Below are positions 365 to 62,311 of a stretch of 64,000 nucleotides of DNA, one piece after another. How positions within the stretch are numbered: the stretch's first letter is position 1; the number at the start of each line of letters is the position of its first letter. Location of the stretch: positions 32,052,278-32,116,277 of the forward strand of contig NC_057719.1 of assembly GCF_004010195.1 (NCBI RefSeq), given 5' to 3'. The stretch is from Chiloscyllium plagiosum. Lineage: Eukaryota. The translations under genes and the position numbers were made by a program. The notes under the pieces are model-generated. The model saw nothing but the letters and a program-made list of their open reading frames with translations. It had not been told where the DNA came from and did no database searches.

Positions 365-369
365 GAGCG

Positions 370-6753: not shown

Positions 6754-8286
6754 TTTGGAGATCCGGTTTTGGACTGGGATGTACAAAGTTTAAAAATCAC
6801 ACAGTCCCAGGTTATAGTCCAACAGGTTTAATTGGAAGCACACTAGCTTTCGGAGCGACGCTCCTTCATCAGGTGATTGTGGAGGGCTCGATCGTAACAC
6901 AGAATTTATAGCAAAAATTTGCAGTATGATGTAACTGAAATTATACATTGAAAAATTGATTGTCTGTTAAGCCTTTCATCTGTTAGAATACAGTGCTAGT
7001 TTCACTTCTTTCATGTGTAAATCACGAAACTTTTGTTTTAAAAGTTGCATTCTCAGGTTAGCTGTTAACAATGGTGATAGCTAGACAAGAATCAAGGACC
7101 TTAAAGTTTGCAGTAATTGCTGTCTGATTCTGTAGTGCTGACACCATCTGCTGCTAGCTCAGAGCATGTGCTTTGTAGTTAAGTGGTGTAAATTATAGAT
7201 AGTGGGGGAAATGGGGTTTTGGGGAGTATTGTACAAAGCTGCTCACTCAGTTCTGTTTAGTGACAGGACAGGCAGGATGCTGTCTTACCAATATCAGTTG
7301 CAAGCAAACAACACATCCCCATTGCCTGTCTGCCTAATTTTTCTGAGCACATTCAGCTGGACAGTAAGATTTAAACACAGCTTTGATCAGAGCGACATCA
7401 GGCCTCACGGAGTTCAGAGAGCTGTTTGTTCTCAATTAAATACCAGTCTGAGCAGCAATCCCAACCCGCCCCTGCCCCCCCCCCCCCCCCCCCCCCAAGG
7501 GTGACAGAGAATCTCAAGTGGGGAAAGGCACTGCTGGCACAAAACAGCTGTAGCTTGTGTCAAGAAGGGAACCATTGCAGATTGCCAAGCCATAGACTGA
7601 ACTCTGTCTTAGCTCCTTTTAACCCAATGGGGCAGGCAAGGGGCACCAGCATGTACAAGGTGGGAGGTGTTCCCATGTGTAATAGTGGTATCTATGTCCA
7701 CAATCTGACACGTCTTGCACGTCCACCGTGACAGAGTTGTATGGAGTTGTCCTGAGAGCCGGGCAGTTTGCTACGAACAATGGTCTGTTTGAGGTTTGGC
7801 AGTTGTTTAAAGGCAAGTAGTGGAGGTGTGGGGAAGGTCTTGGTGAGGTGCTCATCCTCATTGATAATGTGTTGCAGGTCACGAAGGTAATTTTTCAGCC
7901 CCTGGGAAGTCTAAATGCAGGGTACCCTGAACAATGAAGGGTACCCTGTCGGTTGCAGCACGTGTCTGTCTCCTGAGGAGGTCATTACGGTTCCTTGCTG
8001 TGGCACGTCGGAACTGGCGGTTGATGAGTTGAGCATCGTACCCCGTTCTTGTGAGGGAATCCTTGAGTACTTCCAGGTGTTCAGGTGGGGTACCCCCACC
8101 CCAGACAAACACACACACAGACAGACAAAGACCCACATGCACACATATATTTTGTGTGGTGAATTTGTACTTGCAGGGTTACATTGCACTTTGCTCAAAA
8201 ACTGCATACATTCATGTAGAACTCTGAGCTCAAAAACTGCATGAATGTATGTAAAATTCTGTTATCTCACTTTTTAGATTTTTAAC
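6754..8286 (-). mobile_element. Composite Penelope-like insertion with 15 bp TSD
   Basis: tttatattaacttga at 6739-6753 and 8287-8301. PLE 3' end with hammerhead at 6754-7088. RT-thumb/linker on minus strand at 7650-8085: HLEVLKDSLTRTGYDAQLINRQF, LQHIINEDEHL..FPTPPLLAFKQLPNLKQ, CKTCQIVD. Confidence 0.85.
6841..6875 (-). ncRNA. Minimal type I hammerhead ribozyme motif (PLE-associated)
   Basis: Minus strand CAC-CUGAUGA-A-GGAGC-GUC-GCUCC-GAAA-GCUA-GUG: intact core, 5 bp stem II, stem I CAC/GUG, loopless palindromic stem III (AGCU), CUA cleavage triplet. Confidence 0.85.
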
Positions 8287-9842
8287 TTTATATTAACTTG
8301 AAATGCATTTTATGATGAGCTTGTAACAAAGAAGCAAGATGCGCTTTGAGTAGAATTCCCACTTCCTTATCCATTCCCCCTCTCATGGACCAGCTTCCCT
8401 TCACTCCTTCCCCTTTGCTCGATGGTACTTTGTTGCTGAGCAGTGTTATGTTACAAGGCCAAGGTGATGGTGTTTGTCATCCTATTTAATGCAGCAGGCA
8501 TATTGGTATCCAGAGCCTGCACAGCTGTGATTAAAGGGTGTGTGGATTCCTCCGGTTGTGGTGACTGATATTCAATGGAGTTGGCCAATCTATTCCAGAG
8601 GGAAAAAAATGCTCTACAGCATCAATACATTTGCACTTTGGTTGGACTCCCTCATTCTCTCTACTATCCGGAAAATACATGTGGAAGGCCAATCAGTACA
8701 TTGCAGGTTTTCTGTTCCCTCTCCATGAGTATCTTTTCCATAATGGCTCCTGCGGTGGAGAGTCCGTGTCCATCTGAACAGAGTCTGAGAGGGTGTGCCT
8801 TCAAATGTACACTTTCCATGATTCCCATTGCCTCAATTGTCTGCTCTTGCTCACTTATGACACATGTATCACCCAGCGAAATCCTGACTGACTGACAGTG
8901 CATTTAGACTTACAGAAATGTGAGTATTGGCATTACTACCTGTTAAGAATGAATCCAGTGTTGGTACATCCTCAGAGGAATCAACTCCTCTTAGGATTCA
9001 TCATCTAGTTGGGCCACCAGCTGCTACTGCACACATGAAGGCTCTTGGGGGAGAACAGACATAAACAACTATTGGCAAACTTAGTTTGTTACAACTTAGT
9101 GGCATGAAAATCATTATATTTCACTCGGTGCTGAAATGCATTCAACACTACTCAGCACTGTATGACAGGTGATTAAATATTTAATTCTGCCAAAAGGTAA
9201 CTGAAAGTATTGTTTCTGAAGGTCAGAAACTCTGAAATGCTACTGGTTTCTGGCATTTCCTCCTTCACAACTGTCAACAACACAACCCATGGAGATACAT
9301 TCAACCTACTTCCTCTCCCTTGTGTCTGTGCCTCCTCTTACTGCAGCAGAGCAAACAGCGAAACTATGAGTGAGTATAATTACATATTTTCACTCGATGG
9401 CTGTAATGCATTTGGTGAGGGTGAACCCGGAGGGGGGACGTCAAATTTCAAAAGAATGACTGTGAATGCCAATGCTATTTGGGTAGAAGGGAATATGAGG
9501 AAGTGCATAGAAAGGGAAGGATAGATGCACTTGTAAGGTAAAGGAGTGTGAAGAGTGACGTGACAAAGCACATTTAACAAGACAATGTGGAGGCAGGTAC
9601 CATACACAATCGGATATTGGTCAAATGTGTGACTGTTCTTGCCTTCCCTCTCCTGCTTAGATAATTGAAGTGCTTCATACCCCAAATTCCAGTAATGTGG
9701 TCCTGTGCTCCGTTACTGTCCTCCTGAGCTACCTGGCTGTTAACTGTCAATCAGCATGGCAATGTCACTTCCAATCAGAGTCCACTTGCCAACCAATTAG
9801 CACTCACCTCTCATGCAGTATAAATGTTGGTTTTCCCTTTCA

Positions 9843-10705
9843 ATTAGTGATACCTAGAGGTTCAGGTACATAGTTCCTTGAAATGGTATGACAGGTAGAA
9901 AGGGTGGTGAAAAAGGTGTTTGGCACACTTGCTTTCATTGGTGTGAACATTGAGTGCAGAAGTTGAGGCATCATCTTACAACTGTATAAGACATTAGTAA
10001 GGCCACATTTGGAGTACTGCACATAATTCTGGTCACCCTCCTATATGAAGGATGTTATTAAACTGGAAAAGGTGCACAAAAGATTTACAAGGATGTTACT
10101 GAGACTGGGAGGTTTGAGTTGTAAGGACAGGCTGGATAGACTGGGACTTTTTTATCTGGGACTTTTTTTATCTGGGACATAGGAAGCCGAGGGGTGACCT
10201 TATAGAGGTTTATAAAATCATGAGGGGCATGAGGTGAATGACAAGGGTCTTTTCCCCAGGGTGTGTGAATGAACTGCCAGAAAAGTGGGAGATGCGTGTA
10301 TCGTTAGGATGTTTAAAAGATATTTGGATAAATTCATAAATAGGAAAGGTGGGAGGGATGTAGGCCAAGTGCAGGCAAATGGAACTAGTTTACTTTGGGA
10401 ACATGGTCAGCGTGAATTGGTTGGAGCGAAGGGTCTGATTCCATGTTCTATGACTCTATGACATTAAGACCTGAGGGGCAACATTTTCACACACAGAGTG
10501 GTGCACAATTGAAATGAGCTGCCAGAAGAAGTGTTGGGGTACAACATTTAAAAAGACATTTGGATACGTACATGGACAGGAAAGGTTTAGGGGCCTACAT
10601 GCCAAACTCGGACAAATGGGACGAGTTCAGTTTAGGAAATCCAGATGGCATGGATGAGTTGGGCTGAAGGGCCTGTTTATGTGCGGTATGACCTTATGAC
10701 CCTAT
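9843..10705 (+). mobile_element. CR1 LINE 3' end plus a second short CR1 3' fragment
   Basis: LYKTLVRPHLEYC..FWSP, RGDLIEVYKIMRG motifs; ctatgact-type tails at about 10450 and 10700. Confidence 0.9.
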
Positions 10706-10771
10706 GGCTTTAAGATGAAAAACATTGAAAAAATGTATTTTTATTTCCAGTAGCACTCCAGTAATATAAAA

Positions 10772-12959: not shown

Positions 12960-14160
12960 GTGGTAAAAACAATGACTGCAGATGCTGGAAACCAGATTCT
13001 GGATCAGTGGTGCTGGAAGAGCACAGCAATTCAGGCAGCATCCGACGAGCAGCAAAATCGACGTTTCGGGCAAAAGCCCTTCATCAGGAATAAAGGCAGA
13101 GAGCCTGAAGCGTGGAGAGATAAGCTNNNNNNNNNNNNNNNNNNNNNNNNNNNNNNNNNNNNNNNNNNNNNNNNNNNNNNNNNNNNNNNNNNNNNNNNNN
13201 NNNNNNNNNNNNNNNNNNNNNNNNNNNNNNNNNNNNNNNNNNNNNNNNNNNNNNNNNNNNNNNNNNNNNNNNNNNNNNNNNNNNNNNNNNNNNNNNNNNN
13301 NNNNNNNNNNNNNNNNNNNNNNNNNNNNNNNNNNNNNNNNNNNNNNNNNNNNNNNNNNNNNNNNNNNNNNNNNNNNNNNNNNNNNNNNNNNNNNNNNNNN
13401 NNNNNNNNNNNNNNNNNNNNNNNNNNNNNNNNNNNNNNNNNNNNNNNNNNNNNNNNNNNNNNNNNNNNNNNNNNNNNNNNNNNNNNNNNNNNNNNNNNNN
13501 NNNNNNNNNNNNNNNNNNNNNNNNNNNNNNNNNNNNNNNNNNNNNNNNNNNNNNNNNNNNNNNNNNNNNNNNNNNNNNNNNNNNNNNNNNNNNNNNNNNN
13601 NNNNNNNNNNNNNNNNNNNNNNNNNNNNNNNNNNNNNNNNNNNNNNNNNNNNNNNNNNNNNNNNNNNNNNNNNNNNNNNNNNNNNNNNNNNNNNNNNNNN
13701 NNNNNNNNNNNNNNNNNNNNNNNNNNNNNNNNNNNNNNNNNNNNNNNNNNNNNNNNNNNNNNNNNNNNNNNNNNNNNNNNNNNNNNNNNNNNNNNNNNNN
13801 NNNNNNNNNNNNNNNNNNNNNNNNNNNNNNNNNNNNNNNNNNNNNNNNNNNNNNNNTAGGGTGGGAAGAGGTGTAATCCAGGTAGCTGTGGGAGTCGGTG
13901 GGTTTGTTAAAAATGTCAGTGTCAAGTTGGTCATCACTAATGGAGATGGAGAGGTCCAGGAAGGGGAGGGAGGTGTCAGAGATGGTCCAGGTAAATTTAA
14001 GGTCAGAGTGGAATGTGTTGATGAAGTTGATGAATTGCTCAGCCTCCTCGCGGGAGCACGAGGTGGCACCAATGTAGTCATCAATGTAGCAGAGGAAGAG
14101 GTGGGGAGTGGTGCCGTGTAATTACGGAAGATCAACTGTTCTACGTAGCCAACAAAGAGA
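12960..14160 (-). mobile_element. Penelope-like element (RT core, gap, 3' end)
   Basis: 13857-14160 minus strand LFVGYVEQLIF..FLCYIDDYIG..FHSDLKFTW..LPFLDL..KPTDSHSYLDYTSSHP (one frameshift); 3' end with hammerhead at 12960-13126. Confidence 0.93.
13056..13092 (-). ncRNA. Minimal hammerhead ribozyme motif
   Basis: UUC-CUGAUGA-A-GGGC-UUUU-GCCC-GAAA-CGUC-GAU: intact core, ACGU palindromic stem III, GUC triplet. Confidence 0.82.
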
Positions 14161-15746
14161 CCGGCGTGTCCGCTGTCAGCACTGCAGATGTCAGATCAGT
14201 TTTCCTGAGAGTCAACCCAAGGAAAGTGATGGCCCCGGACTGAGTCCCTGGCTGTGCACTTAGATCCTATCTCATCCAGCTATTCACTTACATCTTCCAT
14301 CTCTCCCTCCTACAAGCCGAAGTCCCCATCTGCTTCAAGAAGACCACCACCATATTCGTACCTAAGAAAGCACATGCAATATGCCTTAATGACTGCTGCC
14401 CAGTGGCTCATACCTCCATATTCATGAAATGCTGCGAGATGCTGGTCATGGCCCACATCAACTCTAGTCTCCCAGTCTGCCTCAATCCCCTGCTGACAAT
14501 TTGCCTACCGACAACAGGTCCACAGCAGGTGCTACTTCCCTAGCCCTGCACTCATCCCTGGAATGTCAGACTCCTGTTCATAGATTACAGCTCTGCTTTC
14601 AACACCATTATCCCAACTAAACTGGTCTCAAAACTCCAAGACCTAGGTCTCAGCTCTGCCTCTGCAACTGGATCCTGAGCTTCCTGACTGTAATCAGTGA
14701 AGATTGAGAACTGCACTTTCTTCATGATAACACTCAACACTAGAGCGCTCCGAGGATGCGTTTGTAGCCACCTACTGTACTCCCTGTGTTGCCAAATTCC
14801 ATTCAAACTCCGTCTGGTGACAATAACATGGTAGGAGGATATCAAACAACAATGAGCCAGAATACAGAAAGGAGACAGAGGGCTTGGTGACATAGTGCAG
14901 TGAGAACAACCTCTCTCTCAACTACAGAACTGATCACTGCATTCAGAAAGAAGGGAGAAGAATACACCCCTGTCTTTATCACCTGAGCAGCGGTTGGGTC
15001 TGTCACGTTCCTAGGAGTGATGATAACTGGTAACCTGTCCTGGATGTCCGATGTAGATGTTACAGTGAAGAAGGGACAACAACACCACTTCTCCCTCAGG
15101 TGGCTCAGGAAATTTAGCATGTCCCACAATGTCCCTCACAACTTTTACAGGTGCACCATAGAAAGCATAGTGTCCATGCATAACCGCCCCCTTCTGTTTT
15201 TAACACGACCACTATCTCAGAATAAAAATAACTAACTCATCCACAAAAGGACAACCATGAAGTCAGTCATGCTTGAAAGGAGTAAGTGTAAATTGAGAAG
15301 AATGTCAGCTACAAGATATATGTAATAGACAGAAATCTACAAATGAATGGGGCGATATGGTGTGCTAAGTTAAAGACCATATGAAATGTTAAGATAAGGG
15401 CTGGTTTAATAAGTAGAACTGGTTAGTAAGTTTTGCAGGTGACAACAAAATTGGAGGTGTAGTGGACCCTGAAAAAGGTTATCTCAGAGTACGATGGGCT
15501 TTGATCAGATGGGCAATGGGCCGATAAGTGGTAGATGGAGTTTAATTTAGATAAATGTGAGGTGTTGCATTTTGGTAAGGCAAATCAGAGCAGGACTTAT
15601 ACACTTAATGGTAAGGTCCTGGGGAATTTTACTGAACAAAGAGACCTTGGAGTGTAGGTTCATAGTTTCTCGAATGTCTCATTGCAGGCAGACAGAATAG
15701 TGAAGGCACTTGGTAAGCTTGCCTTTATTGGCCAGTGCATGGAGTA

Positions 15747-16042: not shown

Positions 16043-16185
16043 ACTATAGGAATTGGGAAGCCGTGTTGCTGCTGTACAGGATATCACTAGGTCACTTTTG
16101 GAATATTGCATGCAATCCTGGTCTCCCGGCTATAGGAAGAATGTTGTGAAACTTTAAAGGGTTCAGAAAAGATTTACAAGGATGT

Positions 16186-16318
16186 GCTGAGGAAGGGTCT
16201 CTCGACCTGAAATGTTAACTCTGAATTCTCTTCACAGATATTGCCAGACATATTGAGCTTTTTTAGCTATTTCTATTTTTGTCTCTGATTTACAGCATGT
16301 GCAGTTCTTTTAGTTTTC
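16186..16318 (+). mobile_element. Short PLE 3'-end insertion starting at a decayed hammerhead; 10 bp TSD
   Basis: acaaggatgt at 16176-16185 and 16319-16328; begins gCTGAGGAagggtctctcgacctGAAAtgtt. Confidence 0.8.
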
Positions 16319-19079: not shown

Positions 19080-20149
19080 AGTGGTTATTTTATTTGTGAC
19101 AGAACCAACAAGCTATTGCAAAGGGATGATCCTAGTGCCAAAAGCCAATGGATTCAGCTGACTCCATATATATCTTACACAGATTAACAACGCAAGAGAA
19201 GTTCATCAAGTGAACAAGGAACTAGAAAAGCTGGAAAACAGTTCAATCTTTTTGAAGTTAAATGCATATTGTGTTTTATTTTACAACTACCTCTTGATAA
19301 AGTTGCTCACAACTTCCATCACACCAGTTGGAAGGATTTGCATCAGCAGATAATCCTTTGGCATCATTTCAGCACCAGAAATCTTCCAGGGGATGTCAAG
19401 CACCTTAGAAGGACTGGATGGAGTCATATATTTAATAGAAAATACCCTGGTCTCCACTCAGATGTCCATTCAGATCAGAAGATTGTTATGAATGTTGCTT
19501 CAATTGCCTCCAGGAAATAGGACTTACACTTAACAACAAGTGTAGATGCTCATAGCCCAGTATTAAGTTCCTTGGGCATAATGTGGATGTATCTGGTGTC
19601 AGAACTGATGCACAAAAGACAAGATTAATCAAAGAATTAAGGACTCTTATGAGCATGACTAACCACAAGATTTGTGGTGTGGTAAACCAAACTGAAAAGT
19701 TCTTGCTCAATTTAGCTGTTGTCAGTACACCACTACAAGAGCTGCTAAAATAATATAAAGCATTGTGCTAGGAAGAAGCACAACTGAGACCTTTTGAGAA
19801 ATTTAAAGAGGTATTGACAGGACATGATATTTTAGCTGGCCATGATCTAGAACCATCTACTGTCATTGCAAATGCATTTACTGGCGGCTATATCTTTGCA
19901 TATAGAGACAGATGGAAAAAGTAGATCAGTTTACTACACATCTATTCAATGACAGACGGTGAACAGAGAAATGTTGTGATAGAGAAAGAAGCATTAACAT
20001 CTACACGAGCTTATGAAAACCTTGCAGGTTATATTCTTTGAGTTAGCAAAACTGCTTCCATGATTGTTGTGATTCAGACTACGGATAATAAGGTTTGATG
20101 TAAAGACAGAATATATCTGGAAAAGGCTGCAGACTACAGTAGATACTTT

Positions 20150-20402
20150 CTAGATTAGAGTGGTGCTGGAAAAACACAGCAGGTCAGGCACCATCTGAGG
20201 AGCAGGAAAATCAACGTTTCGGGCAAAAGTCCTTCATCAGGAATGAAGGACTTTTGCCCAGTCCTTCAGTCCTGATGAAGGACTTTTGCCCAAAACGTCA
20301 ATTTTCCTGCTCCTCGGATGCTGTCTGACCTGCTGTGTTTTTCCAGCACCACTCTAATCTAGACTCTGATCCCCAGCATCTGCAGTCCTCACTTTCACCT
20401 AG
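20150..20402. mobile_element. Palindromic non-coding PLE-derived mini-element with inverted hammerhead motifs; 15 bp TSD
   Basis: tacagtagatacttt at 20135-20149 and 20403-20417; arms of about 93 bp at 20150-20243 and 20270-20362 are reverse complements. Confidence 0.9.
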
Positions 20403-21614
20403 TACAGTAGATACTTTGTCCTGTGTCCCTGTGGCATGACCTGAACAAGAAAATGTGTTTTTTATTCTTGAAGAAGTAGAAACTTTTTTGTCAACATAGG
20501 TGACCACCTGCAGGGCCCAGACCAATTTAAACCACTGCAGTCTTTGTTTCTCTTGGTGCATGATGTGCTCACTGTTGACATTGATCCATGCTCTCAATTT
20601 TAAAATTGACTCATAATCTAATGCTATTTTAATAACAATAGTTTTGTTGACATCAGATTAAATCAAATCAGGTTTTGTGATTGGGTTTACTCGTAGATTA
20701 TAAAAATATGTAACAATGAATCCCAGTTTGGTACAACAAAAAAATAATTTAGTATCAGTGATTTTCAAAGCCAGAAAACATTTGGATTGTTGATGGTGTA
20801 TTTGCATTCTGTTACTGCTTTTGTCAAGTGCTCTGTAAGAGAGTTGGAGACTAAGCTGATGTGACACAGTACCTTGGAGTTTTGTGTGTTCATTTTCAGT
20901 GTCAGTTAGTCGAACTTGGCATACTGTTCAATTATTTAATGACATCCTGGGAGCAAATTTATCATTCCCTGGAAATTGATTTATTTAAATTGTCTTAATT
21001 TAGAAGCAGTGTGTTTACAGCAAGGAACTATAAATACATTCTCAGGAGGAGCAGAGAGGGAAATGGACCTAGGGAGACAAAATCAATGAGTAATTTTAAC
21101 AGTTATTCATCCTAGTGTAAGTTTAATTAAGGGGTGGCCTTTTGTGCACTGATCCAAAGGGTGTAACAAAGTGTAACAAGCTTTCTCATTTTATTAACTT
21201 TGTGATGTAAACCATTGCTTAAACACACAATTCTGTTATAGATAATAAACATGATAAAATGTATGCTGAACAGCAGTCTTTGAAGAAACTCTTAATTCCT
21301 TTTGGATCATTTCTAATGCCTTGCTTAACAAAAATACTGTAAAATTTCCTGAACAAGATTGATTTTTTTTTCTGCAGTCATCTGTGTATAGGGATGAATA
21401 ACCAAAACATTTTTGTGTCTGAATTCAAGCCATACAGAATAGAATGAGTTGTAATTATAGGATGTCAGAGTCTTCTTAAGAAACGTGACCATTTCCTGAG
21501 AGATGGAGGACATTGAGGCATTTTGAGGAGGTTAATTAACTTCACAGTGATGGATCATAAGCAATCATGATTTCCTCGAGCTGGCCTTTTGGAGTCATTG
21601 ATGAATTTCTCTGA

Positions 21615-21750
21615 AACCAAAAGCAGCAGCTGCTAGAAATCTAAAATAATAACAAAGTACTGGAAACATTTAGCAGTTCCAGCAGTATTCATACAGAGGA
21701 CACAGGTAAGGTTAATGTTTCAGGCTGATGGCTGTTCTTCAGCAATGAAG
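21615..21750 (-). mobile_element. Old PLE 3'-end fragment with decayed hammerhead
   Basis: Minus strand gCTGAAGAacagccatcagcctGAAAcatt followed by the tgctg..ctgct..tttccag tail pattern seen in the other PLE ends. Confidence 0.55.
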
Positions 21751-21827
21751 TTAGTGAATAAATGCAACCAAACTGAGAATTGGAACCTAGGTGGTTTTGT
21801 CCAAAATGACCATGGTTACAACATTTA

Positions 21828-23884: not shown

Positions 23885-24820
23885 TTTAAAATTTGCTCTT
23901 GGATGTGGATATATGCACAGTAATATAATTGTGTAATGCTAAATTCCTCTGAGATGGCTATGTTGGGCTGTCTCATTGAACTGTTGCAGTTTTTGGTTGA
24001 CTTACAATGCTGTTAGGGAGGGAGCACCAAGATTTTGACCCCAATGCAGTGAAAACACAAGTGATATAGTTCCAAGTCAGGACGGTATGCGGCTGGAGAG
24101 GAGTTTGCAGGTGGTGGTGCTTCTCATGCATCTGCTCCCCTTATCCTCCTAGGTGGTTACGGTTTATGGTTTTCAACAGAGCTTCTGAAGAAATCTTTGC
24201 AATTTACTGCAGTGCATCTCATACATGATGAACACTACGGCTGCTATGCTTTATTGGTGAGGGAAATGAATGTTGAAGGTGGTGGAAGGGGTCCCATTCA
24301 AGCAGGCTGCTATGCCCAGGATGTTGTCAAGGTTCCTGTTGATTTCTTAGAGCTGTACCTATTCTGGCAATTGGAGAGTAAACCACCACATTGTGCCTTC
24401 TAAATGGTGAACAGATAAGGGAAAGACACAAGCTGAGTTATTTGCCTCTGAGTTGTTTTTGTAGCCATATTATTTATATGGATAGTCCAATTCAGTTTCT
24501 GGTCAATGGTAAACCACCTCTCCCACCCCCACCTCCCGGATTTTGACAATGGGGGATTCAGTAATGGTAATATCATGTATATCAAGGCATTAGATGCTAA
24601 AAATAAAACAAAGCTGTTAGAAGTCTGAAATAAAAGCAGAAATTGTTGGAGAAACTCAACAGATCTGGCAGCATCAGTGAGAGTTAAGAGAACTAACAAT
24701 AATTATATTCTGCCCTGTTGGAGATGGTCATTGCCTGGCAGTTGTATGGCACAAATGTTACATGAGACTTTTCAGTTCAAACCAGAATGTTTTCCAGGTC
24801 TTGCTGCATAGAGACACAAA
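23885..24820 (-). mobile_element. Older CR1-group LINE 3' portion, containing a PLE-end insertion at about 24598-24700
   Basis: Colinear with 26130-27500; IDQKLNWT.HINNMATK motif. Confidence 0.7.
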
Positions 24821-29575: not shown

Positions 29576-30711
29576 AAACCCTTCAGTCCAACCTGTCCAT
29601 GCTGAGCAGATATCCTAACCCAATCTAGCTCCACCTGCCAGCACGATATCCCTCCAAACCATTCCTATTCATACACCCATCCAATGCTTTTTAAATGTTG
29701 CAATTGTAACAGTATCCACTGCTTCCTCTGGCAACTCATTCCATACACGTGCCACTCTCTGCATGAAAAAGTTGCCTCCTTAGGTCACTTTTATATATTT
29801 CCCCTCTGACCCTAAAGCTATGCCCTCTAGTTCTGGACTCCCTGGTCCCAGGGAAAAGACTTTGTCTACTTATCTTATCCATGCCACTCATAATTTTGTA
29901 AACTTCTATAAGGTCACCCCTCAGCCTCCGACGCTCCAGGGAAAAAAGCGCCAGCCTGTTCAGCCTTTCCCCATAGCTCAAATCCTCCAACCCTGGCAAC
30001 ATCCTTGTAAATCTTTTCTGGACCCTTTCAGGTTTCACAACATCTTTCCAACAGGAAGGAGACCAGAATTGCATGCAATTTTCCAACAGTGGCCTAACCA
30101 ATGTCCTGTACAGCCGCAACATGACCTCCCAACTCCTGTACTCAATACTCTGACCAATAAAGGAAAGCATACCAAATGCTGCCTTCACTATCCTACCTAC
30201 TGTGACTCCACTTTCAAGGAGCTATGAACCTGCACTCCAAGGTCTCTTTGTTAAGCAACACTCCCTAGGACCTTGCCACTAAATGGATAAATCCTGCTAA
30301 GATTTGCTTTCCCAAAACACAGCACCTCGCATTTATCTGAATTAAACTCCATCTGCCACTTCTTAGCCCATTGGCCCATCTGATCAAAATCCTGTTGTAA
30401 TCCGAGGTAACCCTCTTTGCTGTCCACTCCACCTCCAATGTTGGTGTCATCTGCAAACTTACTAACTGTACTTCTTATGCTCACATCCAAATCATTTATG
30501 TAAATGACAAAAAGTAGAGAACCCAGCACTGATCCTTGTGGCACTCCACTGGTCACAGGCCTCCAGTCTGAAAAACAACCCTTCACCACCACCCTCTGTC
30601 TTCTACCTTTGAGCCAGTTCTGTATCCAAATGGTTAGTTCTCCCTTTATTCCGTGAGATCTGACCTTGCTAACCAGTCTCCCATGGGGAACCTTGTTGCA
30701 CGCCTTACTGA
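29576..30711 (-). mobile_element. CR1 ORF2 RT and 3' end
   Basis: SGVPQGSVLG..LFVIYINDLD...KFADDT; RLRGDLIEVYKIM. Confidence 0.95.
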
Positions 30712-31459
30712 NNNNNNNNNNNNNNNNNNNNNNNNNNNNNNNNNNNNNNNNNNNNNNNNNNNNNNNNNNNNNNNNNNNNNNNNNNNNNNNNNNNNNNNNN
30801 NNNNNNNNNNNNNNNNNNNNNNNNNNNNNNNNNNNNNNNNNNNNNNNNNNNNNNNNNNNNNNNNNNNNNNNNNNNNNNNNNNNNNNNNNNNNNNNNNNNN
30901 NNNNNNNNNNNNNNNNNNNNNNNNNNNNNNNNNNNNNNNNNNNNNNNNNNNNNNNNNNNNNNNNNNNNNNNNNNNNNNNNNNNNNNNNNNNNNNNNNNNN
31001 NNNNNNNNNNNNNNNNNNNNNNNNNNNNNNNNNNNNNNNNNNNNNNNNNNNNNNNNNNNNNNNNNNNNNNNNNNNNNNNNNNNNNNNNNNNNNNNNNNNN
31101 NNNNNNNNNNNNNNNNNNNNNNNNNNNNNNNNNNNNNNNNNNNNNNNNNNNNNNNNNNNNNNNNNNNNNNNNNNNNNNNNNNNNNNNNNNNNNNNNNNNN
31201 NNNNNNNNNNNNNNNNNNNNNNNNNNNNNNNNNNNNNNNNNNNNNNNNNNNNNNNNNNNNNNNNNNNNNNNNNNNNNNNNNNNNNNNNNNNNNNNNNNNN
31301 NNNNNNNNNNNNNNNNNNNNNNNNNNNNNNNNNNNNNNNNNNNNNNNNNNNNNNNNNNNNNNNNNNNNNNNNNNNNNNNNNNNNNNNNNNNNNNNNNNNN
31401 NNNNNNNNNNNNNNNNNNNNNNNNNNNNNNNNNNNNNNNNNNNNNNNNNNNNNNNNNNN

Positions 31460-34081: not shown

Positions 34082-34179
34082 ATTGAAAACTTCCCAATGA
34101 TATTCTGTAACAGAAGCTGTCTAGTATATAGAAAAGTATATGCATTATAATGGCAGCCTATACAATATTTCCAAATAAG

Positions 34180-34430
34180 ATCAAAAGCTCAAAAATCTCA
34201 GTAGGCCAGGGTAGCATCAATTCTGATGAAAGATCATAGGCCTGAAGCGTTAACCCTATTTCTCTCCACAGATACTGCATGACCATTGAACTATAACCTG
34301 GTGCCGTGTGATTTTTGACTTTGTCCACCCCAGTCCAACACCAGCTCCTCCACATCATGTCCTGCTGAGGTTTGTCAGCAGTTTTGCTTCTTATTTTAGA
34401 TTTCCAGCGTGTAGAGTGTTTTGCTTTTTT
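34180..34430 (+). mobile_element. Chimeric PLE-end remnants with decayed hammerhead
   Basis: ttCTGATGAaagatcataggcctGAAGcgttaac; 34288-34352 matches the terminal part of the 6754-6820 PLE end in reverse orientation. Confidence 0.65.
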
Positions 34431-35499: not shown

Positions 35500-36540
35500 G
35501 GATGACCCCCCAGGTGGATGGAGAAATGCTCCAGGGTGATTTGACCAAATTGAGTGAGTGGGCAAATGTGGAGAAATGTGAAATTTTCCACTTTGGTAGC
35601 AGAATCAGGAAGGTAAGTTATTACCTGAATGGCAATAGATTGAAGACCTGGGTGTCCTTCTACAACAGTCATTGCAAGTAAGCATGCAGGTCCAACATGC
35701 AGTGAAGGTCACAGATAGTATGTTAGACTTGAAAGTGAGAGAACTCCAGTCCAGAAGTAGGGATATTTGTTGCAATCATTCAAGGTCTTGGAAAGACCAC
35801 ACATGGGATTTCGTCTCCAGCTTTAGTCTCCTTTTCTATGGAAGGATGGAAGGAGTGCAACAAAGGTTAACCAGAGAGTCATGAAGTTCTACAGCACAGA
35901 GACAGGCCCTTTGGCCCAAACTGGTCCATGCCGACCAGAGAAAAACCAAAAGAACTGCGGATATTGTAATCAGAAACAAAACAGAAACTGCTGGAAAAGC
36001 TCAGCAGGTCTGGCAGCATCTGTGAAGAGAAATCAAAGTTAATGTTTTGAGTCTGGTGACCCTTCCTCAGAACTGGATTTATTCCTGAGATGACAGGATT
36101 GATGCATGAAGAGAGATTGGAACAGTTCGAACTATCATTCACTGGAGTTTAGAAGAATAAAGGGCAACTTATAGAAACCTATACACATCTAACAGGATTG
36201 GACAGGGCAAACAAACGAAGGACATTCCTGATGACTGAGCAGTCCAGAACTAAAGTCAGAGTTTAATGATACAGAGTAGTGATTTAGGTATAAGATAAGG
36301 TAAAACCTCTTCACCCAGTATAGTGAGCCTGTGGAATTCTGTGCTACAGAAATCAGTTGAGATCAAAACATTGAATGTTTTCAAGGAAGGGTGAAAAATA
36401 ATTCTTAGGGCTAAAGTAATGAAAAGTTATGGAGAGAAAATGGGAAGAGGGTGTTGTGTTGGGCAATTATCCAGATTATATTGATTGGCACAACAGGCTT
36501 GAAGGGCTGAATGGCTTACCTCTGCTCCTAGTTTCTATCT
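35500..36540 (+). mobile_element. Old CR1 3' portion with a PLE-end insertion (35939-36075, minus strand)
   Basis: LQGDLTKLSEWA..EKCEIFHFG; insert is the reverse complement of the 16186-16318 family and ends at CTGAGGA. Confidence 0.8.
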
Positions 36541-39831: not shown

Positions 39832-42800
39832 ACTCATAGAATCATAGACATTTAAAGCACAGAGGAGGCCATTGGCCCATTGTGTCTATCCTAGTCACCA
39901 ACATCTGACTACACTAAACCCATTTTTCAACTGTTAACCTATAGTCCTATAGGCAAGTGAATATCTAATATCACTTCAGTGTTTTAAATTTTGACTCCAA
40001 TACCATTCTTAGCAACAAATTCTAGACTCCCGTCATGCTGTGCATGGAAAACAATTTTTCTCAACTCCACTTTTAGCCTTCTACCTTTTAACTTTAAATC
40101 TATGCCCCCTAGTTGTTGATTTCTTTACTGATTTAATATGTGAATGTACCTGCTAGAGAAGGTGCAAAACTTGACCTACTCTTGGGAAGTAAGGCAGGGC
40201 AGGTGACTGATGTGGGGGAGCACTTTGGGGCCAGTGACATAATTCTATTAGATTTAAAATAGTGATGGAAAAGGATAGACCAGATCTAAAAGTTGAAGTT
40301 CTAAATTGGAGAAAGATCAATTTTGATGGTATTAGGCAAGAACTTTCAAAAGCTAATTGGGGGCAGATGTTCGCAGGTAAAGGGATGGCTGGAAAATGGG
40401 AAGCCTTCAGAAATGAGATAATGAGGATCCAGAGAAAGTATATTCCTGTCAGGGTGAAAGGAAAGGCTGGTAGGTATAGGGAATGCTGGATGACTAAAGA
40501 AATTGAGGGTTTGGTTAAGAAAAAGAAGGAAGCATATGTCAGGTATAGACAGGATAGATTGAGTGAATCCTTAGAGTATAAAGGCAGTAGGGGTATACTT
40601 AAGAGGGAAATCAGGAGGGCAAAAAGGGGACATGAGATAGCTTTGGCAAATAGAATTAATGAGAATCCAAAGGGTTTTTGCAAATACATTAAGGACAAAA
40701 GGATAACTAGGGAGAGAATGGGGCCCCTCAAAGATCAGCAAGGCGGCCTTTGTGTCGAGTCACAGAAAATGGGGGGAGATACAAAATGAGTATTTTGCAT
40801 CAGTATTTACTGTGTAAAAGGATATGGAAGATATAGAATGTAGGGAAATAGATGGAGACACTTTGAAAAATGTCCATATTACAGAAGAGGAAGTGCTGGA
40901 TATCTTGAAACGCATAAAGGTGGATAACTCCCCAGGACGTTATCAGGTGTATCCTAGAACTCTGTGGGAAGCTAGAGAAGTGATTGCTGGGCCTCTTGCT
41001 GAGATATTTGTATCATTGATAGTCACAGGTGAGGTGCTGGAAGACTGGAGGTTGCCTAACATGGTGCCACTGTTTAAGAAAGGTGGTAAGGACAAACCAG
41101 GGAACTATAGACCAGTGAGCTTGACATCGGTGGTGGGCAAGTGGTTGGAGGAAATCCTGAGGGACAGGATGTACATGTATTTGGAAAGGCAAGGACCGAT
41201 TTAGGGATAGTCACAAAGTAACAAAGAGTATTGATGAGGGCAGAGCGAAGATGTGATCTATATGGACTTCAGAAGGCATTCGACAAGGTGCCCCATGGGA
41301 GACGGATTAGCAAGGTTAGATCTCATGGAATAGAGGGAATAAAGGTAGAAGACAGAGGGTGGTGGTGGAGGCTTGTTTTTCAGACTGGATGCCTATGACC
41401 AGTGGAATGCCACAAGGATTGGTGCTGGGGGGGGTCTTCTTCTTTTTGTCATTTATATAAATGATTTGGATGCAAGCATAAGAGATATAGTTAGTAAGTT
41501 TGCAGATGACACCAAAATTGGAGGTGTGGTGAACAGCTAAGAAGGTTACCTTAGATTACAACAGGATCTTGACCAGATGGGCCAATGGGCTGAGAAGTGT
41601 CAGATGGAGATTAATTCAGATAAATGCGAGGTGCTGCATTTTGGGAAAGCAAATCTCAGCAGGACTTATACACTTAATGGTAAGGTCCTAGAGAGTGTTA
41701 CTGAACAAAGAGACCTTGGAGTGCAGGTTCATAGCTCCTTGAAAGTGGATAGTGAAGGTGGCGTTTGGTATGCTTTCCTTTATTGGTCAGAGTACTGAGT
41801 ACAGGGGTTGGGAGGTCATGTTGCGGCTGTACAGGACATTAGTTAGGCCACTGTTGGAATATTGCATGCAATTCTTGTCTCCTTCTTATTGGAAAGATGT
41901 TGTGAAACTTGAAAGGGTTCAGAAAAGATTTACAAGCATGTTGCCAGTGTTGGAGGATTTGAGCTATAAGGAGAGGCTGAACAGGCTGGGGCTGTTTTCC
42001 CTAGAGCGTCGGAGGCTGAGGGGTGACCTTATAGAGGTTTACAAACTTATGAGGGGCTTGGATACGATAAATAGACAAAATCTTTTCCCTGGGGTCGGGG
42101 AGTCCAGAACTAGAGGGCATAGGTTTAGAGTGAGAGGGGTAAGATATAAAAGAATCCTAAGGGGCAACTTTTTCACACAGAGGGTGGTACGTGTATGGAA
42201 TGAGCTGCCAGAGGATGAGGTGGAGGCTGGTACAATTGCAACATTTAAGAGGCATTTGGATGGGTACGAATAGGAAAGCTTTGGAGGGATATGGGCCGGG
42301 TGCTGGCAGGTGGGACTAGATTGGGTTGGGATATCTGATTGGCATGGATGGGTTGGACCGAAGGGTCTGTTTCCTTGCTGTATGTCTCTATGACTCTAAT
42401 GGTAACAATGTGTTTCTATCCATTTGTGCCTCAAATTCTTGTACATGTCTATCAGGTCCCTTCTCAATGTTCACTGCTCCAAGGAAAAATAGCTTGTCCA
42501 ATCTATCATCACAGCTCAGAGCCTCTCACTTGGGCAGCATCCTGCTAAATCTCCTCTGCATCCTCTCTCGTGCAATTTAGATGCTTCCTATAATATGATG
42601 GCCAGTACTGCACACAGTACTCCAATTGTGGCCAAACCAGCATTTTAGATAGTTCCAAAATCTGCAGCCTTCTTTGTTCTCCACCTTACATTTAAGTCCA
42701 GTTGTAAATTTACACCACAAACAGCAATGACACCAGCACAGCCCTGTGGAACCTAACTGGAAACACGCTTTCAGTCACTTAACCATTTCTCTGTCATTAC

Positions 42801-45150: not shown

Positions 45151-46329
45151 GAGTTAGATGGAAGGACAAACTTAAATGGTCAACATAGTATTTCTTGGCT
45201 TCATATTTTCTTTCTTCTCATATCCCTATTTTAAAAACTGTTTAAAATTCTCCAATTCCTTTTGTGCCCAAGTGGTTAATGGCCTAAGCAACTAGGTCCA
45301 ACAGAAAATTGACTAAACAGCTTCTGTAAACAAAGGAATGCAAAGATGCCAAGGTCATCACAGATCAAAAGCCAACATGGACCAGCCCAGACGTGTCTTT
45401 CATATTGAACTGAGATGATCAACCTTAACAATGGGAGAGTCCTTATAGGCCAAAACTCATTAAGAGGTACTCAGCCAGAACAATAGGGAGAGACACTATG
45501 TTTTTATGTTCCCCAGTTTTGGCCAGACCTCTTAGCACTATGGATTAATCATATCTTATAAAAGGGATAGGTAACACCTAGGATGATCTGGCCTAACCTC
45601 ATTGGGTGCCCTACGACACTGTTGGCTGAAGCCAGGGAACATTGCAGAAGGGCTAAGAAGGGACGCCTGGCTGTCATTCCCTCAGCAAAGACTTGGCCTG
45701 TTGATAGAACTCAATGAATTGAACCAGCTGCCAAATAAAATTCACAGAATGGGTAGTATATGTGTTTTTCAGGCAGTTAGCCTAGTTTATGAATAGGAGA
45801 AAGTGAGGGCTGCAAATGCTAGAGATCAGAGTCATTTCTAGTTTAGGAATAGTTAGCTTAATTTTTGTTACACTGGATTCTCTAACTTGCTCGTGTTTTC
45901 CTTTTTTTTTCTCATACGGTAAGATCACCCAAATAAACATGTTTAATTAGTAATTAACTGATTGAAGTCTATGGAATATTTCACAGGCAATACTTCCATA
46001 ATCATAAAATTTAATGGATATTTTATATAATCCATGTTCAAATCTATCTGTAAATTCATATTTCATTCACATAATTTGGCAAATTTCCTCAAAAGATAAT
46101 TTCCATTATTTTAGTTCTCCTATTTTACACCTTGACATCACAAAATATTTATAATTCTACAAGTGATACCTCCAACATAATTTATAACTGGTGCAAATGG
46201 GATGCCCAGTGCATGCCAAAATGCCATATTTGTTTCTCTGAGTGAGAAATATTTCACTATATACATTGCCTTTTCTATTTTTGTTGCTCAGCCTGTTCTA
46301 AATCCAGCTGGTGAATCTAAAAGTAAATG

Positions 46330-55790: not shown

Positions 55791-55796
55791 GGAATC

Positions 55797-59110: not shown

Positions 59111-59262
59111 ACATCGAAAAGTGTGGTGCTAGAAAAGCACAGCAGGTCAGACAACATTCAAGGAGCAGGAGGATTGACGTTTCAGGCATAGGCCTTCATC
59201 AGGAATGATTCAGACTTTTTGATTCTGACTCTCCAGCATCTGCAGTCTTCACTTTCTCCCAA
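59111..59262. mobile_element. PLE-derived mini-element with hammerhead; 14 bp TSD (1 mismatch)
   Basis: tgtgagaaaaataa 59097-59110 / tgtgagaacaataa 59263-59276; minus strand cCTGATGAaggcctatgcctGAAAcgtc. Confidence 0.82.
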
Positions 59263-59782
59263 TGTGAGAACAATAATTCTAGAATAAGAAGAGACATAAT
59301 TTTGCATTTGGTAAATTATTTTTTTCTTTGCTATACATAAAACTTACATCTTATCTTTACATTCTTTCTCTAAACCAAAATATTTTGCTGTAGACCTCTG
59401 TTTCTACATTAAGTCTTCAAGAAAGCAAAATATTCAAGACTTAGTTTTGCCTTTTCACAATGAACATGGTCATCAGGTCACTTTGTTTTCCCAATATCAG
59501 ACCACTGCGCCTTAACCCACCATGATCATTTGAGCGATTAGAGTTTAACAGGGTTAAAGGTGGCTATGGATATTAGCTGAAAATGAAGCTAAAGTGGATG
59601 TTAAGCCCAATTTAAGCTAAGGGCAGCTAATTGGGGTTTAGAAAGAGAGTTCCGGGGGCAAAGCTGATGAAGGTTTTGTCGATATGGTATGTGGGAAGGT
59701 TTTCACGGTAGGCCAGTATTGAAAACTGGGAATTAATTCTGCTGTTGTTACCCAGTTGGTTTTCTAGAATCATCATAGAAGG

Positions 59783-60110
59783 AGAATCATAGAATCCCGA
59801 TAGTGTTGAAACAGGCCATTTGGCCCATTGAGTCCACACTGACCCTCCAAAGAGCATCCCATCCAGGTCTAGACACCCTCCCCTCGAACCTATCCCTGTA
59901 AGCCTCCATTTGCCATGGCTAATCCACCTAGCCTACACATCCCTGGATACTACGGGCAATTTAGCATGGGCAAGCTACCTCAACTGCACATCTTTGGACT
60001 GTGGAAGGAAGCTGGTACATCCAGAGGAAACCTGGATAAGGGGAGAATGTGCAAACTCCACACAGCTCGAGGCTGGAATTGAACCCAGGTCCCTGGTACG
60101 GTGAGGTAAT
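59783..60110 (-). mobile_element. V-SINE
   Basis: Reverse-orientation V-domain, head and tail. Confidence 0.85.
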
Positions 60111-60695
60111 AATGACACCAGGCTGTCCAGTTATAAGCAACTCTAACTTACCCCACCGACACCCCCAAAATCTGTTCAACATCAACAAAACACAAGTCAA
60201 ACACATGTGATAAAATATTCGCAGCTTGTTTGAGTGAGTGCAGTTCCAGCAACACTCAACAATACCATCCAGGATAAAACAGCTCACTTTTTCAGTACTT
60301 TATCCACTGCTTTATGCATTAATTCTCTCCACCACTGGCACAAAGCAGCAACTTTATGCCCCATCTGTAAGATGTTCTGCAGCAACATTTCTAGCCTCTT
60401 TTGGCACATATTTCAAAAACGTGACTTCTAGCACCAAGAAGGAAAAGGGCAGTAGATTCATAAAAACACTGCACCTGCAAGTACCCCTTCAAATCATGTG
60501 TCATCTTGACTTGGAAATATATTGCCATTCCAGCACTATCAAAAGCTCAGAACTCTCTAACATCATGGGTGGCTAACACAACACTGACCACAGCAGTACA
60601 ACACAACCTTCACAAGAGTCTTTAAGGATGGGCAAAAATGCTGGCTTTTCCGGTGATGCTCACTTCCCATGTGGGAAGTAACCACAATAAAAGGA
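60110..60695 (+). mobile_element. Older CR1-group LINE 3' end
   Basis: VSAVPATLNNTIQDKTA; ggatgggcaaaaatgctggc...cacttcccatg tail. Confidence 0.7.
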
Positions 60696-60946
60696 TGGAA
60701 AAGAAACCACATCGCAATTGGCTTTTAAGTTGGTCAAACAGTCACCTGGTTCTCTCAGCAACTGTTCAAACTAATTAGAAATAGACAATAAATATCCCAG
60801 CCTCAGCAGAAAGACCCACACACTGAAAATGAAACTGGAAACATACTGGAAATCTGAAAGAAGTTCTGAAAAGATTTCATTGGCCTATAATGTTTATTCC
60901 ATTGACAGATGCTACCAGAGTTGTTGAGTATTTTTTGAATTATTAA

Positions 60947-61163
60947 TGTGTATAGTGATTATGATGAGATTAATCAGCTGAACTTCATAGAATATGAGTT
61001 CCTTGATTGGGGCTGTTAGGTCCAATTAGTAAGTCCTGGTTGATATATAATAAGATGCTGACACTCTGAGAGCTGCCTCTAAAGAGGCAGTACTAACATC
61101 ACTGACTGTTAATGTATAGAGGGTGACTTGGTGATGGATACTGGCCTCTGTGGAGTTATTTCA
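60947..61163 (+). mobile_element. Putative solo LTR (TG...CA)
   Basis: Begins tgtg, internal tatataa, ends ggatactggcctctgtggagttatttca; shares its end with 1270-1394. Confidence 0.55.
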
Positions 61164-61171
61164 GGAGATAG

Positions 61172-62311
61172 GAGAAAGTGAGGACTGCAGATGCTGGAGA
61201 TCAGAGCTGAAAATGTGTTGCTGGAAAAGCGCAGCAGGTCAGGCAGCATCCAAGGAACAGGAGAATCGACGTTTCGGGCATAAGCCCTTCTTCAGGAATG
61301 CGGAAAGTGTGTCCAGCAGGCTAAGATAAAAGGTAGGGAGGAGGGACTCGGGGGAGGGGCGTTGGAAATGCGATAGGTGGAAGGAGGTCAAGGTGAGGGT
61401 GATAGGCCGGAGTGGGGTNNNNNNNNNNNNNNNNNNNNNNNNNNNNNNNNNNNNNNNNNNNNNNNNNNNNNNNNNNNNNNNNNNNNNNNNNNNNNNNNNN
61501 NNNNNNNNNNNNNNNNNNNNNNNNNNNNNNNNNNNNNNNNNNNNNNNNNNNNNNNNNNNNNNNNNNNNNNNNNNNNNNNNNNNNNNNNNNNNNNNNNNNN
61601 NNNNNNNNNNNNNNNNNNNNNNNNNNNNNNNNNNNNNNNNNNNNNNNNNNNNNNNNNNNNNNNNNNNNNNNNNNNNNNNNNNNNNNNNNNNNNNNNNNNN
61701 NNNNNNNNNNNNNNNNNNNNNNNNNNNNNNNNNNNNNNNNNNNNNNNNNNNNNNNNNNNNNNNNNNNNNNNNNNNNNNNNNNNNNNNNNNNNNNNNNNNN
61801 NNNNNNNNNNNNNNNNNNNNNNNNNNNNNNNNNNNNNNNNNNNNNNNNNNNNNNNNNNNNNNNNNNNNNNNNNNNNNNNNNNNNNNNNNNNNNNNNNNNN
61901 NNNNNNNNNNNNNNNNNNNNNNNNNNNNNNNNNNNNNNNNNNNNNNNNNNNNNNNNNNNNNNNNNNNNNNNNNNNNNNNNNNNNNNNNNNNNNNNNNNNN
62001 NNNNNNNNNNNNNNNNNNNNNNNNNNNNNNNNNNNNNCCCTCGAACTCAGCACCGCCTTCCTAACCTGCAATCTTCTTCCTGACCTCTCCGCCCCCACCC
62101 CAGTCTGACCTATCACCCTCATCTTGACCTCTTTCCACCTATCGCATTTCCAACGCCCCTCCCCCAAGTCCCTCCTCCCTACCTTTTATCTTAGCCTGCT
62201 GGACACACTTTCCTCATTCCTGAAGAAGGGCTTATGTCTGAAACGTCGATTCTCCTGTTCCTTGGATGCTGCCTGACCTGCTGCGCTTTTCCAGCAACAC
62301 ATTTTCAGCTC
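61172..62311. mobile_element. Young PLE insertion with inverted pseudo-LTRs spanning a gap; 15 bp TSD; two hammerheads
   Basis: tatttcaggagatag 61157-61171 and 62312-62326; 61203-61418 is the reverse complement of about 62095-62312; CTGAAGA-agggcttatgccc-GAAA-cgtc at 61263-61298 (-) and a variant at 62217-62253 (+). Confidence 0.92.

What the first reader, a model, noticed from the sequence alone, without database searches (positions are those of the whole stretch)
6841..62253. Window-wide set of about 11 minimal hammerhead ribozyme motifs carried by at least three Penelope end families
Seen: CUGANGA-A-[stem II]-GAAA-[ACGU/AGCU palindrome] at 6841(-), 13056(-), 16187(+), 20212(-), 20271(+), 21712(-), 34221(+), 36040(-), 59174(-), 61263(-) and 62217(+). 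Stem II differs between families but stays paired (GGAGC/GCUCC, GGGC/GCCC, GGGUC/GACCU), which is covariation around an invariant core. Established: PLE pseudo-LTRs carry minimal type I hammerheads whose loopless stem III is thought to require dimerisation. Inference: most copies here are non-coding 130-250 bp insertions, behaving like a ribozyme-tipped non-autonomous family mobilised by PLE RT, at about one per 6 kb.
Basis: partly seen in the sequence, partly recalled or inferred. Interest (0 to 1): 0.72.

Follow-up and report, generated by a model that had tools for sequence, protein, structure and literature searches.

The report
Penelope retroelement stubs with minimal hammerheads
These motifs are the already described minimal hammerhead ribozymes at the ends of Penelope-like jumping genes in a shark-like genome; the short copies start a few bases in front of the ribozyme and not at its predicted cut site, so they are likely dead-end copies of the front of the element's own RNA rather than a separate mobile family.

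Summary
All 11 sites are real Penelope-like-element (PLE) end sequences in a shark-like genome. Only 7 keep an exact core with stem II (0.24 expected by chance) and 5 the whole minimal fold. They make 9 insertions: two pairs share 15-bp target duplications. Three insertions run on into UTR or ORF; six are short. Covariation exists between families A, B and C; within A the changes look like decay. The short copies are not randomly truncated: 5 of 6 have a supported 5' junction, all 1-6 bases before the core. In public shark data, family A depth falls 9-16-fold there and head-to-tail joints cluster there. There is no step at the predicted cleavage site, and polyadenylated family C RNA reads through it. 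Best reading (0.5): the PLE enzyme primes at the tail near the front of the autonomous RNA and likely runs off its 5' end. Solitary minimal hammerheads in PLE remnants are published (PMC4209133). The fixed start did not turn up in my paper searches, but this scan noted it before on other shark DNA.

The parts
6841..6875 (-). Family C minimal hammerhead, intact: stem I 3 bp, stem II 5 bp, palindromic stem III; predicted cut between 6844 and 6843
6750..7121 (-). Family C pLTR with upstream 3' UTR; poly(A) signal at 6832-6827; family-level poly(A) sites at 6815 and 6812; common 3' end at 6790
7636..8079 (-). Broken PLE ORF piece (RT thumb, CX4CxxC linker with a frameshift); its link to the C pLTR is inferred from strand and nearness only
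12966..14195 (-). 5'-truncated family A PLE: RT piece 14171-13858 (89.5% to P0004 over 86 aa), intact hammerhead (core 13087) and tail; part of the interior is unreadable
16186..16315 (+). Short family B insertion into another repeat, starting at the core (16187); target duplication 10 bp perfect, or 13 bp with 1 mismatch
20150..20402 (.). One family A insertion with two head-to-head hammerhead copies (cores 20240- without tail, 20272+ with tail) and a fold-back junction; 15-bp target duplication 20135-20149 / 20403-20417
21619..21748 (-). Old decayed B-type copy (core 21742); stem II broken; 5' junction not established
34177..34415 (+). Old B copy (core 34223) with a probable inverted piece upstream (34177-34218) and a nested ribozyme-less family C fragment at about 34286-34355
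35949..36075 (-). Short B copy (core 36070, G12A) starting 5 bases before the core; boundary judged by eye from the surrounding sequence, no target duplication found
59111..59262 (-). Short family A insertion: inverted tail, then hammerhead copy from about -6 (core 59202) to the tail-less end; 14-bp target duplication with 1 mismatch
61172..62311 (.). One inverted family A insertion with long UTR arms: cores 61295- (intact, with tail) and 62220+ (two G-U pairs in stem II, no tail); 15-bp target duplication; part of the interior is unreadable
60830..60935 (+).
45797..45837 (-). Tail-only family A insertion (41 bp, no ribozyme) with a 15-bp target duplication (1 mismatch)
24613..24700 (-). B fragment without a recognisable core
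1..438 (-). N-terminal PLE ORF piece with the DKG motif (80% to P0004 over 146 aa), running off the window

Best explanation
The motifs are the minimal hammerheads in the end repeats (pLTRs) of endonuclease-bearing Penelope-like retroelements, and the short A and B copies are likely dead-end DNA copies of the first 90-130 bases of the autonomous element's RNA. Shown here: the copies end at one of two 3' points (with or without a tail of about 45 bp), several carry 10-15 bp target duplications, and the short ones start 1-6 bases before the catalytic core, about 30 bases upstream of the predicted cut site. Taken from the literature: a PLE enzyme nicks DNA and primes at two internal sites bounding the tail, on uncut RNA (PMC11167929), and Penelope transcription starts inside the pLTR (PMC2377424). 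Inferred: the RNA begins at an Initiator-like motif overlapping the 5' strand of stem I, so priming at the tail of the RNA's 5' pLTR gives a unit-length cDNA that runs off the RNA end and is joined directly, by fold-back, or to a second unit. Priming at the 3' pLTR would give the longer, variably truncated copies. The ribozyme is carried along uncut and many copies have decayed.
For: Window: 5 of 6 short insertions have a 5' junction supported by a target duplication, an inversion or (36070) flank inspection, all at -1 to -6 from the core. A rough constant-hazard estimate, counting the weak 60866 copy, gave p about 1e-7 for 6 of 10, or 3e-6 after allowing for 20 windows. Public data for family A: depth drops from 22.6M at 61259-68 to 2.5M at 61309-18 in X1, from 13.6M to 0.84M in X10, and from 2296 to 268 raw reads in X21. 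The 5' loose ends listed at the ribozyme edge are 61298-61300. Head-to-tail joints from 61299/61300 to the tail end occur in 65 contigs in X1 and 41 in X10, against 8 and 5 at the other three listed positions. No step at the predicted cut (61268/61267): 22.6M against 22.3M in X1, 2296 against 2089 reads in X21. Family C poly(A) reads cross the predicted cut with no drop (1541, 1590, 1638 per bin). Two listed joints from 61299 and one from 61298 begin with a letter that reads as an extra G on the element strand, against 0 of the other 9 listed (12 of 162 rows shown, table 5c), which would fit a cap.
Against: No transcription start was measured; the poly(A) library showed no start pile (table 6). 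The depth step is confounded: the reference copy has an unusual base at 61301, and the loose-end consensus (agreement 0.35-0.39 in three of four rows at 61299/61300) partly resembles other subfamilies' UTRs, so part of the step is sequence divergence and not true ends. Only 24 of 1240 loose-end rows and 15 of 188 joints were shown. Family C shows no sharp 5' step (8.8M falling gradually to 0.9M), no head-to-tail joint among 15 of 16 listed, and only a few inversions at 6880-6881. No clear extra G at -5 was seen by eye at the window's short-copy junctions. The Initiator consensus is recalled, short and easily met by chance. Short and long copies were not shown to intermix (unresolved).
Confidence: 0.5

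Rival explanations
1. Structured truncation: the enzyme primes at the 3' pLTR of full-length RNA and stalls or switches template at the 5' edge of the folded or protein-bound hammerhead.
For: The ends coincide with the 5' strand of stem I; fold-back and inverted junctions sit there. PMC11167929 found the PLE hammerhead to be protein-assisted. No start site is needed.
Against: Stem I is predicted to be nearly absent in monomers (probability 0.06 or less). The stable part, stem II, lies 8-20 bases downstream and no listed pile of ends sits there. Family C has a stronger fold but no sharp step.
Confidence: 0.22
2. One reading: the 131-bp unit is a self-propagating non-autonomous element, retrozyme- or SINE-like, transcribed from short copies or their head-to-tail dimers and mobilised in trans by the PLE protein.
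For: A fixed unit with target duplications; exact head-to-tail dimers exist in both organisms laid (65 and 41 contigs). Non-autonomous PLE derivatives are published (PMC8557442 for MRC1; bioRxiv 10.64898/2026.07.22.740005). pLTR sequence sufficed for mobilisation in trans in rotifers (PMC3846280).
Against: Dimer joints are few beside about 3500 contigs ending at the tail in X1. The window has no same-strand tandem. Unit ends are not at the cut site. Short copies are not shown to be a clade. In the anole element the minimal template ran to +172, past the priming sites at +111 to +118 (PMC11167929), and short copies lack the equivalent stretch.
Confidence: 0.17
3. An RNA-processing boundary (splice acceptor or other cut) at the 5' end of stem I defines the start.
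For: In Drosophila virilis the intron ends at the 5' end of helix I (PMC4209133). The B copy at 36070 has an AG at -4/-3.
Against: Most A copies lack AG there; no common upstream exon appears (loose-end agreement 0.35-0.36 in the DNA runs, no skip joint listed at that place).
Confidence: 0.05
4. Ordinary random 5' truncation; the pile-up comes from looking only for whole motifs and from subfamily divergence upstream.
For: Ribozyme-less fragments exist (45797, 24613, 34286, possibly 4535). Other subfamilies' UTRs inflate the depth step.
Against: Head-to-tail joints, whose far side is known sequence, cluster at two adjacent bases. Window junctions cluster within 6 bases.
Confidence: 0.06

Closest known systems
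[quoted passage not shown]
   Same: Core, extra base before stem II, G10.1-C11.1 pair, palindromic 15.2-16.2, several families per genome, mostly solitary copies 'probably related to truncated PLEs', pairs on opposite strands, thousands per genome in fish, coelacanth and frog.
   Different: No shark is named in the parts read, and no fixed 5' start is reported there. Family A has a shorter stem II (4 bp) and stem I (2 bp) than the Schistosoma motifs.
Insertion units of canonical endonuclease-bearing PLEs, Neptune/Nematis type (PMC8557442 and PMC3846280; passages read)
   Same: 5' truncation, adjacent inverted truncated copy, optional 30-40 bp tail at one end, palindromic head-to-head junctions, target duplications (8-10 bp there), DKG motif, CX2-5CxxC linker.
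   Different: Here the duplications are up to 15 bp, the tail is about 45 bp, and the truncation point of short copies is concentrated just before the ribozyme.
Poseidon element of Anolis, PAc (Frangieh et al. 2024, PMC11167929; parts 1-2 of 4 read)
   Same: Two priming sites bound the tail; uncut RNA is the template; no RNA-seq ends at the cut site.
   Different: Different clade; the parts read do not describe unit-length copies made from the RNA's 5' end.
Non-LTR retrozymes (PMC7229834, passages read; bioRxiv 10.64898/2026.07.22.740005, parts 1-3 of 5 read)
   Same: Short non-coding type I hammerhead repeats related to PLE pLTRs; monomers dispersed; the preprint's sample includes one cartilaginous fish.
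   Different: Retrozymes are defined by tandem units and circular RNA, with canonical hammerheads in PMC7229834. The window holds only monomers and inverted pairs with minimal motifs; tandems appear only as a minority in outside contigs.

Membership tests
Minimal type I hammerhead (min-HHR) | CUGANGA and GAAA core with an extra base before stem II | tested here: met
   Exact in 8 of 11; 7 also keep stem II, against 0.24 in shuffles
Minimal type I hammerhead (min-HHR) | Stems I and II supported by compensatory changes | tested here: met
   7 of 11 pairs with a double-sided change, score above 500 of 500 shuffles; between families only, so 2-3 lineages and not independent of ancestry
Minimal type I hammerhead (min-HHR) | Loopless palindromic stem III | tested here: met
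   90.9% of cells paired, C-G in A/B and G-C in C
Minimal type I hammerhead (min-HHR) | Self-cleavage as a dimer or with protein | not testable with these tools
   No assay; reads cross the predicted site without a step, which shows uncut RNA exists, not that cutting never happens
Endonuclease-bearing PLE, Neptune/Nematis type | RT with DKG motif linked to the pLTR | tested here: met
   RT piece 14171-13858 lies upstream of core 13087 on the same strand and is 89.5% like P0004, which has DKG and RVT_1
Endonuclease-bearing PLE, Neptune/Nematis type | CX2-5CxxC linker and C-terminal GIY-YIG endonuclease | tested here: inconclusive
   Linker seen frameshifted in the piece 8079-7636 and intact, followed by a GIY-YIG-like motif (read by eye), in relatives P0015, P0016, P0024; not visible for family A; no ORF known for B; no RT tree built
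Endonuclease-bearing PLE, Neptune/Nematis type | Optional tail, inverted truncated copy, target duplication | tested here: met
   Two 3' ends (61169-71, 61214); duplications in 5 of 15 boundary sets tested, scores of 10 or more in 1 of 139 random pairs (a sixth hit at 13087 is an internal tail-like repeat)
Non-LTR retrozyme | Tandem units each with a whole hammerhead | tested here: not met
   None in the window; head-to-tail joints exist in outside contigs as a minority
Non-LTR retrozyme | Unit-length linear and circular RNA | not testable with these tools
   Only a poly(A) single-cell run and contigs were available
Non-autonomous PLE-dependent family (SINE-like) | Fixed 5' end | tested here: met
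   -1 to -6 for A and B; not for C
Non-autonomous PLE-dependent family (SINE-like) | Own lineage of short copies, apart from autonomous pLTRs | tested here: inconclusive
   4 independent A insertions; sites 5:4:0; tree forks open
Non-autonomous PLE-dependent family (SINE-like) | Own promoter or head | not tested
   No foreign head was seen by eye at the short copies; promoter activity not testable

The most novel reading that the evidence does not exclude
The 131-base unit from the RNA start to the tail is the smallest self-propagating PLE derivative: it carries its own internal promoter, its exact head-to-tail dimers let two minimal hammerheads cut as a pair and release a 131-nt circle, and the PLE protein re-inserts it. 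Shark genomes would then record the birth of retrozymes from run-off copies of a PLE's 5' end.
Probability: 0.15. Interest if true: 0.65.

Novelty: new member of a known kind. Interest (0 to 1): 0.33.

Why it matters
The motif and its place are known, so the count alone is ordinary. What is useful is the fossil record of mechanism: how PLEs regenerate their end repeats and what their hammerhead does are open questions (PMC8557442, PMC2377424). Very many shark copies that start just before the ribozyme, and no step at its cut site, would map the RNA start, support internal priming on uncut RNA in a second PLE clade, and explain how head-to-tail ribozyme dimers arise. This can be tested directly on a shark assembly plus cap mapping.

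Tried and rejected
No whole genome was held, so genome-wide clustering could not be done. Rfam: no hammerhead match; the three best of 8 hits were microRNA models on the 20150-20402 palindrome, below their cut-offs. A 32-base family A/B pattern found 0 loci in metagenome and 0 in viral contigs. Run search: no RNA holder listed; X22 laid 0 reads, so no test. Idea that upstream UTR locks the ribozyme in a rival hairpin: stem II probability fell for 13087 (0.22-0.32) and for 6872 in one of two contexts (0.02, 0.84) but not for 61295; 4-15% of shuffled upstreams did as much for those two; not robust, dropped. Tree of 8 copies left the A copies unresolved. No target duplication was found for 21742, 34223, 36070, 24675, 60866, 4535, 6872 or the nested C piece. 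Pfam recognised only RVT_1 in P0004, none in the 4 window pieces. Three loose hits (6500, 40882, 62755) appear only under the relaxed descriptor, where shuffles give 1.1 on average; treated as chance. Lunse et al. on PLE hammerhead dimers was not held; I saw only its title and a citing passage in PMC6765202. No copy number is given, because summed contig depth is not one.
Full report
Setting. The window is repeat-rich animal DNA. Its PLE ORF pieces match proteins named for Chiloscyllium, Hemiscyllium and other cartilaginous fishes (up to 85% identity; up to 84%), so the host is shark-like. No assembly was held, so outside evidence comes from two read lays.

Observation. Each of the 11 listed sites holds a hammerhead-like motif. 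Profile searches sort them into family A (6 motifs), B (4) and C (1); A and B align over the ribozyme and the 100 bases behind it, while C is separate. An exact core with at least 3 of 4 stem II pairs occurs 7 times against 0.24 in 25 shuffles; the full minimal fold occurs 5 times against 0. Six motifs fail the full descriptor. Among 22 differences from the majority in family A, 6 are CpG transitions, and they hit G12, C11.1 and stem I. On the 11-row alignment 75% of cells pair, 7 of 11 pairs have a double-sided change, and the score exceeds all 500 shuffles and all slid controls. These changes mostly separate A, B and C, so they rest on two or three lineages. This matches the min-HHR consensus of PMC4209133 (parts 1-2 of 4 read).

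Insertions. Target duplications show that 20240 and 20272 are one palindromic 253-bp insertion and that 61295 and 62220 are one inverted insertion of 1.14 kb (15 bp perfect each). 59202 has 14 bp with one mismatch, 16187 has 10 bp perfect, and a tail-only insert at 45797-45837 has 15 bp with one mismatch; 1 of 139 random boundary pairs scored as high as the weakest of these. So 11 motifs are 9 events. Three are long: 13087 sits behind an RT piece 89.5% identical to P0004, the 61295/62220 arms run at least 120-180 bases into UTR, and 6872 has at least 150 bases of family UTR with a PLE linker fragment further upstream. Six are short. Five of those have a supported 5' junction, all at -1 to -6 from the core: 16187 by duplication, 59202 and 20240/20272 by duplication and inversion, 34223 by a probable inversion (1.5% of random stretches score as high), and 36070 by eye only. 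21742 is undetermined. A twelfth decayed copy at 60866 seems to start at -4. Three or four fragments lack the ribozyme.

Family A outside the window (61119-61418 laid on X1, X10, X15, X21 at 80% likeness). The 3' ends pile at 61169-61171 (tail) and 61214 (no tail), which fits two priming sites as shown for the anole element (PMC11167929, parts 1-2 of 4 read). On the 5' side, depth falls about 9-fold (X1), 16-fold (X10) and 9-fold (X21 raw reads) between the ribozyme body and 61309-18, and the listed loose ends at that edge are 61298-61300. This step is confounded, because the reference has an unusual base at 61301 and the loose consensus partly resembles other subfamilies' UTRs. The cleaner evidence is the head-to-tail joints, whose far side is the known tail end: 65 contigs in X1 and 41 in X10 join 61299/61300 to 61169/61170, against 8 and 5 at the three other listed positions (15 of 188 joints shown). 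There is no step at the predicted cut site 61268/61267. Three listed joints from 61298-61299 begin with a letter that reads as an extra G on the element strand, and none of the other 9 listed do (12 of 162 rows; the orientation of those letters is my assumption). That is weak agreement with a cap, a lead I took from e1-8159767; I saw no clear extra G at -5 in the window's own junctions.

Family C outside the window (6730-7029 on X1, X21, X22). Depth declines gradually across the ribozyme; no head-to-tail joint is among 15 of 16 listed, and a few inversions fall at 6880-6881. So the sharp start is not shown for C. In X21, 557 and 456 reads carry poly(T) at 6812 and 6815, 12-15 bases behind the signal at 6832-6827, with strong strand bias. 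Depth is 1541, 1590 and 1638 across the predicted cut at 6844/6843, and no core position is listed as differing in 20% or more of reads. Polyadenylated RNAs with an intact, uncut family C ribozyme therefore exist. They come from family members anywhere in the genome, and a cut 30-base product would not be seen in this library. X22 laid no reads.

Mechanism. Shown: two 3' ends, target duplications, clustered 5' starts in A and B, no ends at the cut site. Published: internal priming on uncut RNA, and a template that must extend past the priming site (PMC11167929); a start inside the pLTR with an internal promoter (PMC2377424, passages read). Inferred: the shark A/B RNA starts at the Initiator-like sequence overlapping stem I (consensus recalled, not from a call), and priming at the tail of the 5' pLTR makes a 90-130 base cDNA that runs off the end, then joins the target directly, folds back, or is followed by a second unit. 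I give this 0.5, stalling at the ribozyme edge 0.22, a self-propagating family 0.17, random truncation 0.06 and a splice boundary 0.05. The test that would separate by-product from family, whether short copies form their own clade, was uninformative with four events. Monomer folding gives stem II at 0.77-1.0 for three intact copies when the RNA starts at -6, and stem I at 0.06 or less, as expected for a motif that needs a partner or protein. The window's paired motifs are on opposite strands and cannot form that dimer in one transcript.

Known and new. Solitary and opposite-strand min-HHRs in truncated PLEs (PMC4209133), inverted truncated pLTRs with tails (PMC8557442, PMC3846280, passages) and PLE-derived retrozymes in vertebrates including one cartilaginous fish (bioRxiv 10.64898/2026.07.22.740005, parts 1-3 of 5; its supplements are closed and may list the shark families) are in print. 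I did not find a report of short copies starting just before the ribozyme in seven searches or in the passages read; the library lacks most subscription papers, including Lunse et al. This scan noted the same pattern on other shark DNA; I had logged my reading before seeing those notes, and they are unchecked, so they are not support. Verdict: new member of a known kind, with one mechanistic clue worth a genome-wide test; interest 0.33.

Noticed in passing
window 6832-6812 (-): The family C pLTR supplies a poly(A) signal and site used in about 1000 reads of one single-cell run; such copies could end host transcripts.
   Followed up: partly
window 45797-45837 (-): A 41-bp tail-only insertion with a 15-bp target duplication: its 5' end falls near the second common 3' end of the family, as if copying ran from one priming site to the other.
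   Followed up: partly
window 20150-20402: A 253-bp palindromic insertion with a junction of several short fold-back pieces; it would form a long RNA hairpin and scores weakly against microRNA models.
   Followed up: partly
window 4535-4589 (+) and 24613-24700 (-): Two old ribozyme-less fragments (C-like and B) seem by eye to begin near the predicted cut site; too decayed to call.
   Followed up: no
window 34286-34355 (+): A family C fragment inserted inside an older family B pLTR, same strand.
   Followed up: partly
window 14181-14195 (-): A 10-base match to the family A tail lies just upstream of the truncated RT piece, perhaps a remnant of a partial tandem, perhaps chance.
   Followed up: no
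window 7122-7635: About 510 bases of unidentified sequence stand where the endonuclease of the PLE fragment at 8079-7636 would be.
   Followed up: no
window 29736-33362, 40153-42273 and other places: Many broken LINE ORF pieces that look CR1-like (label recalled, not tested).
   Followed up: no
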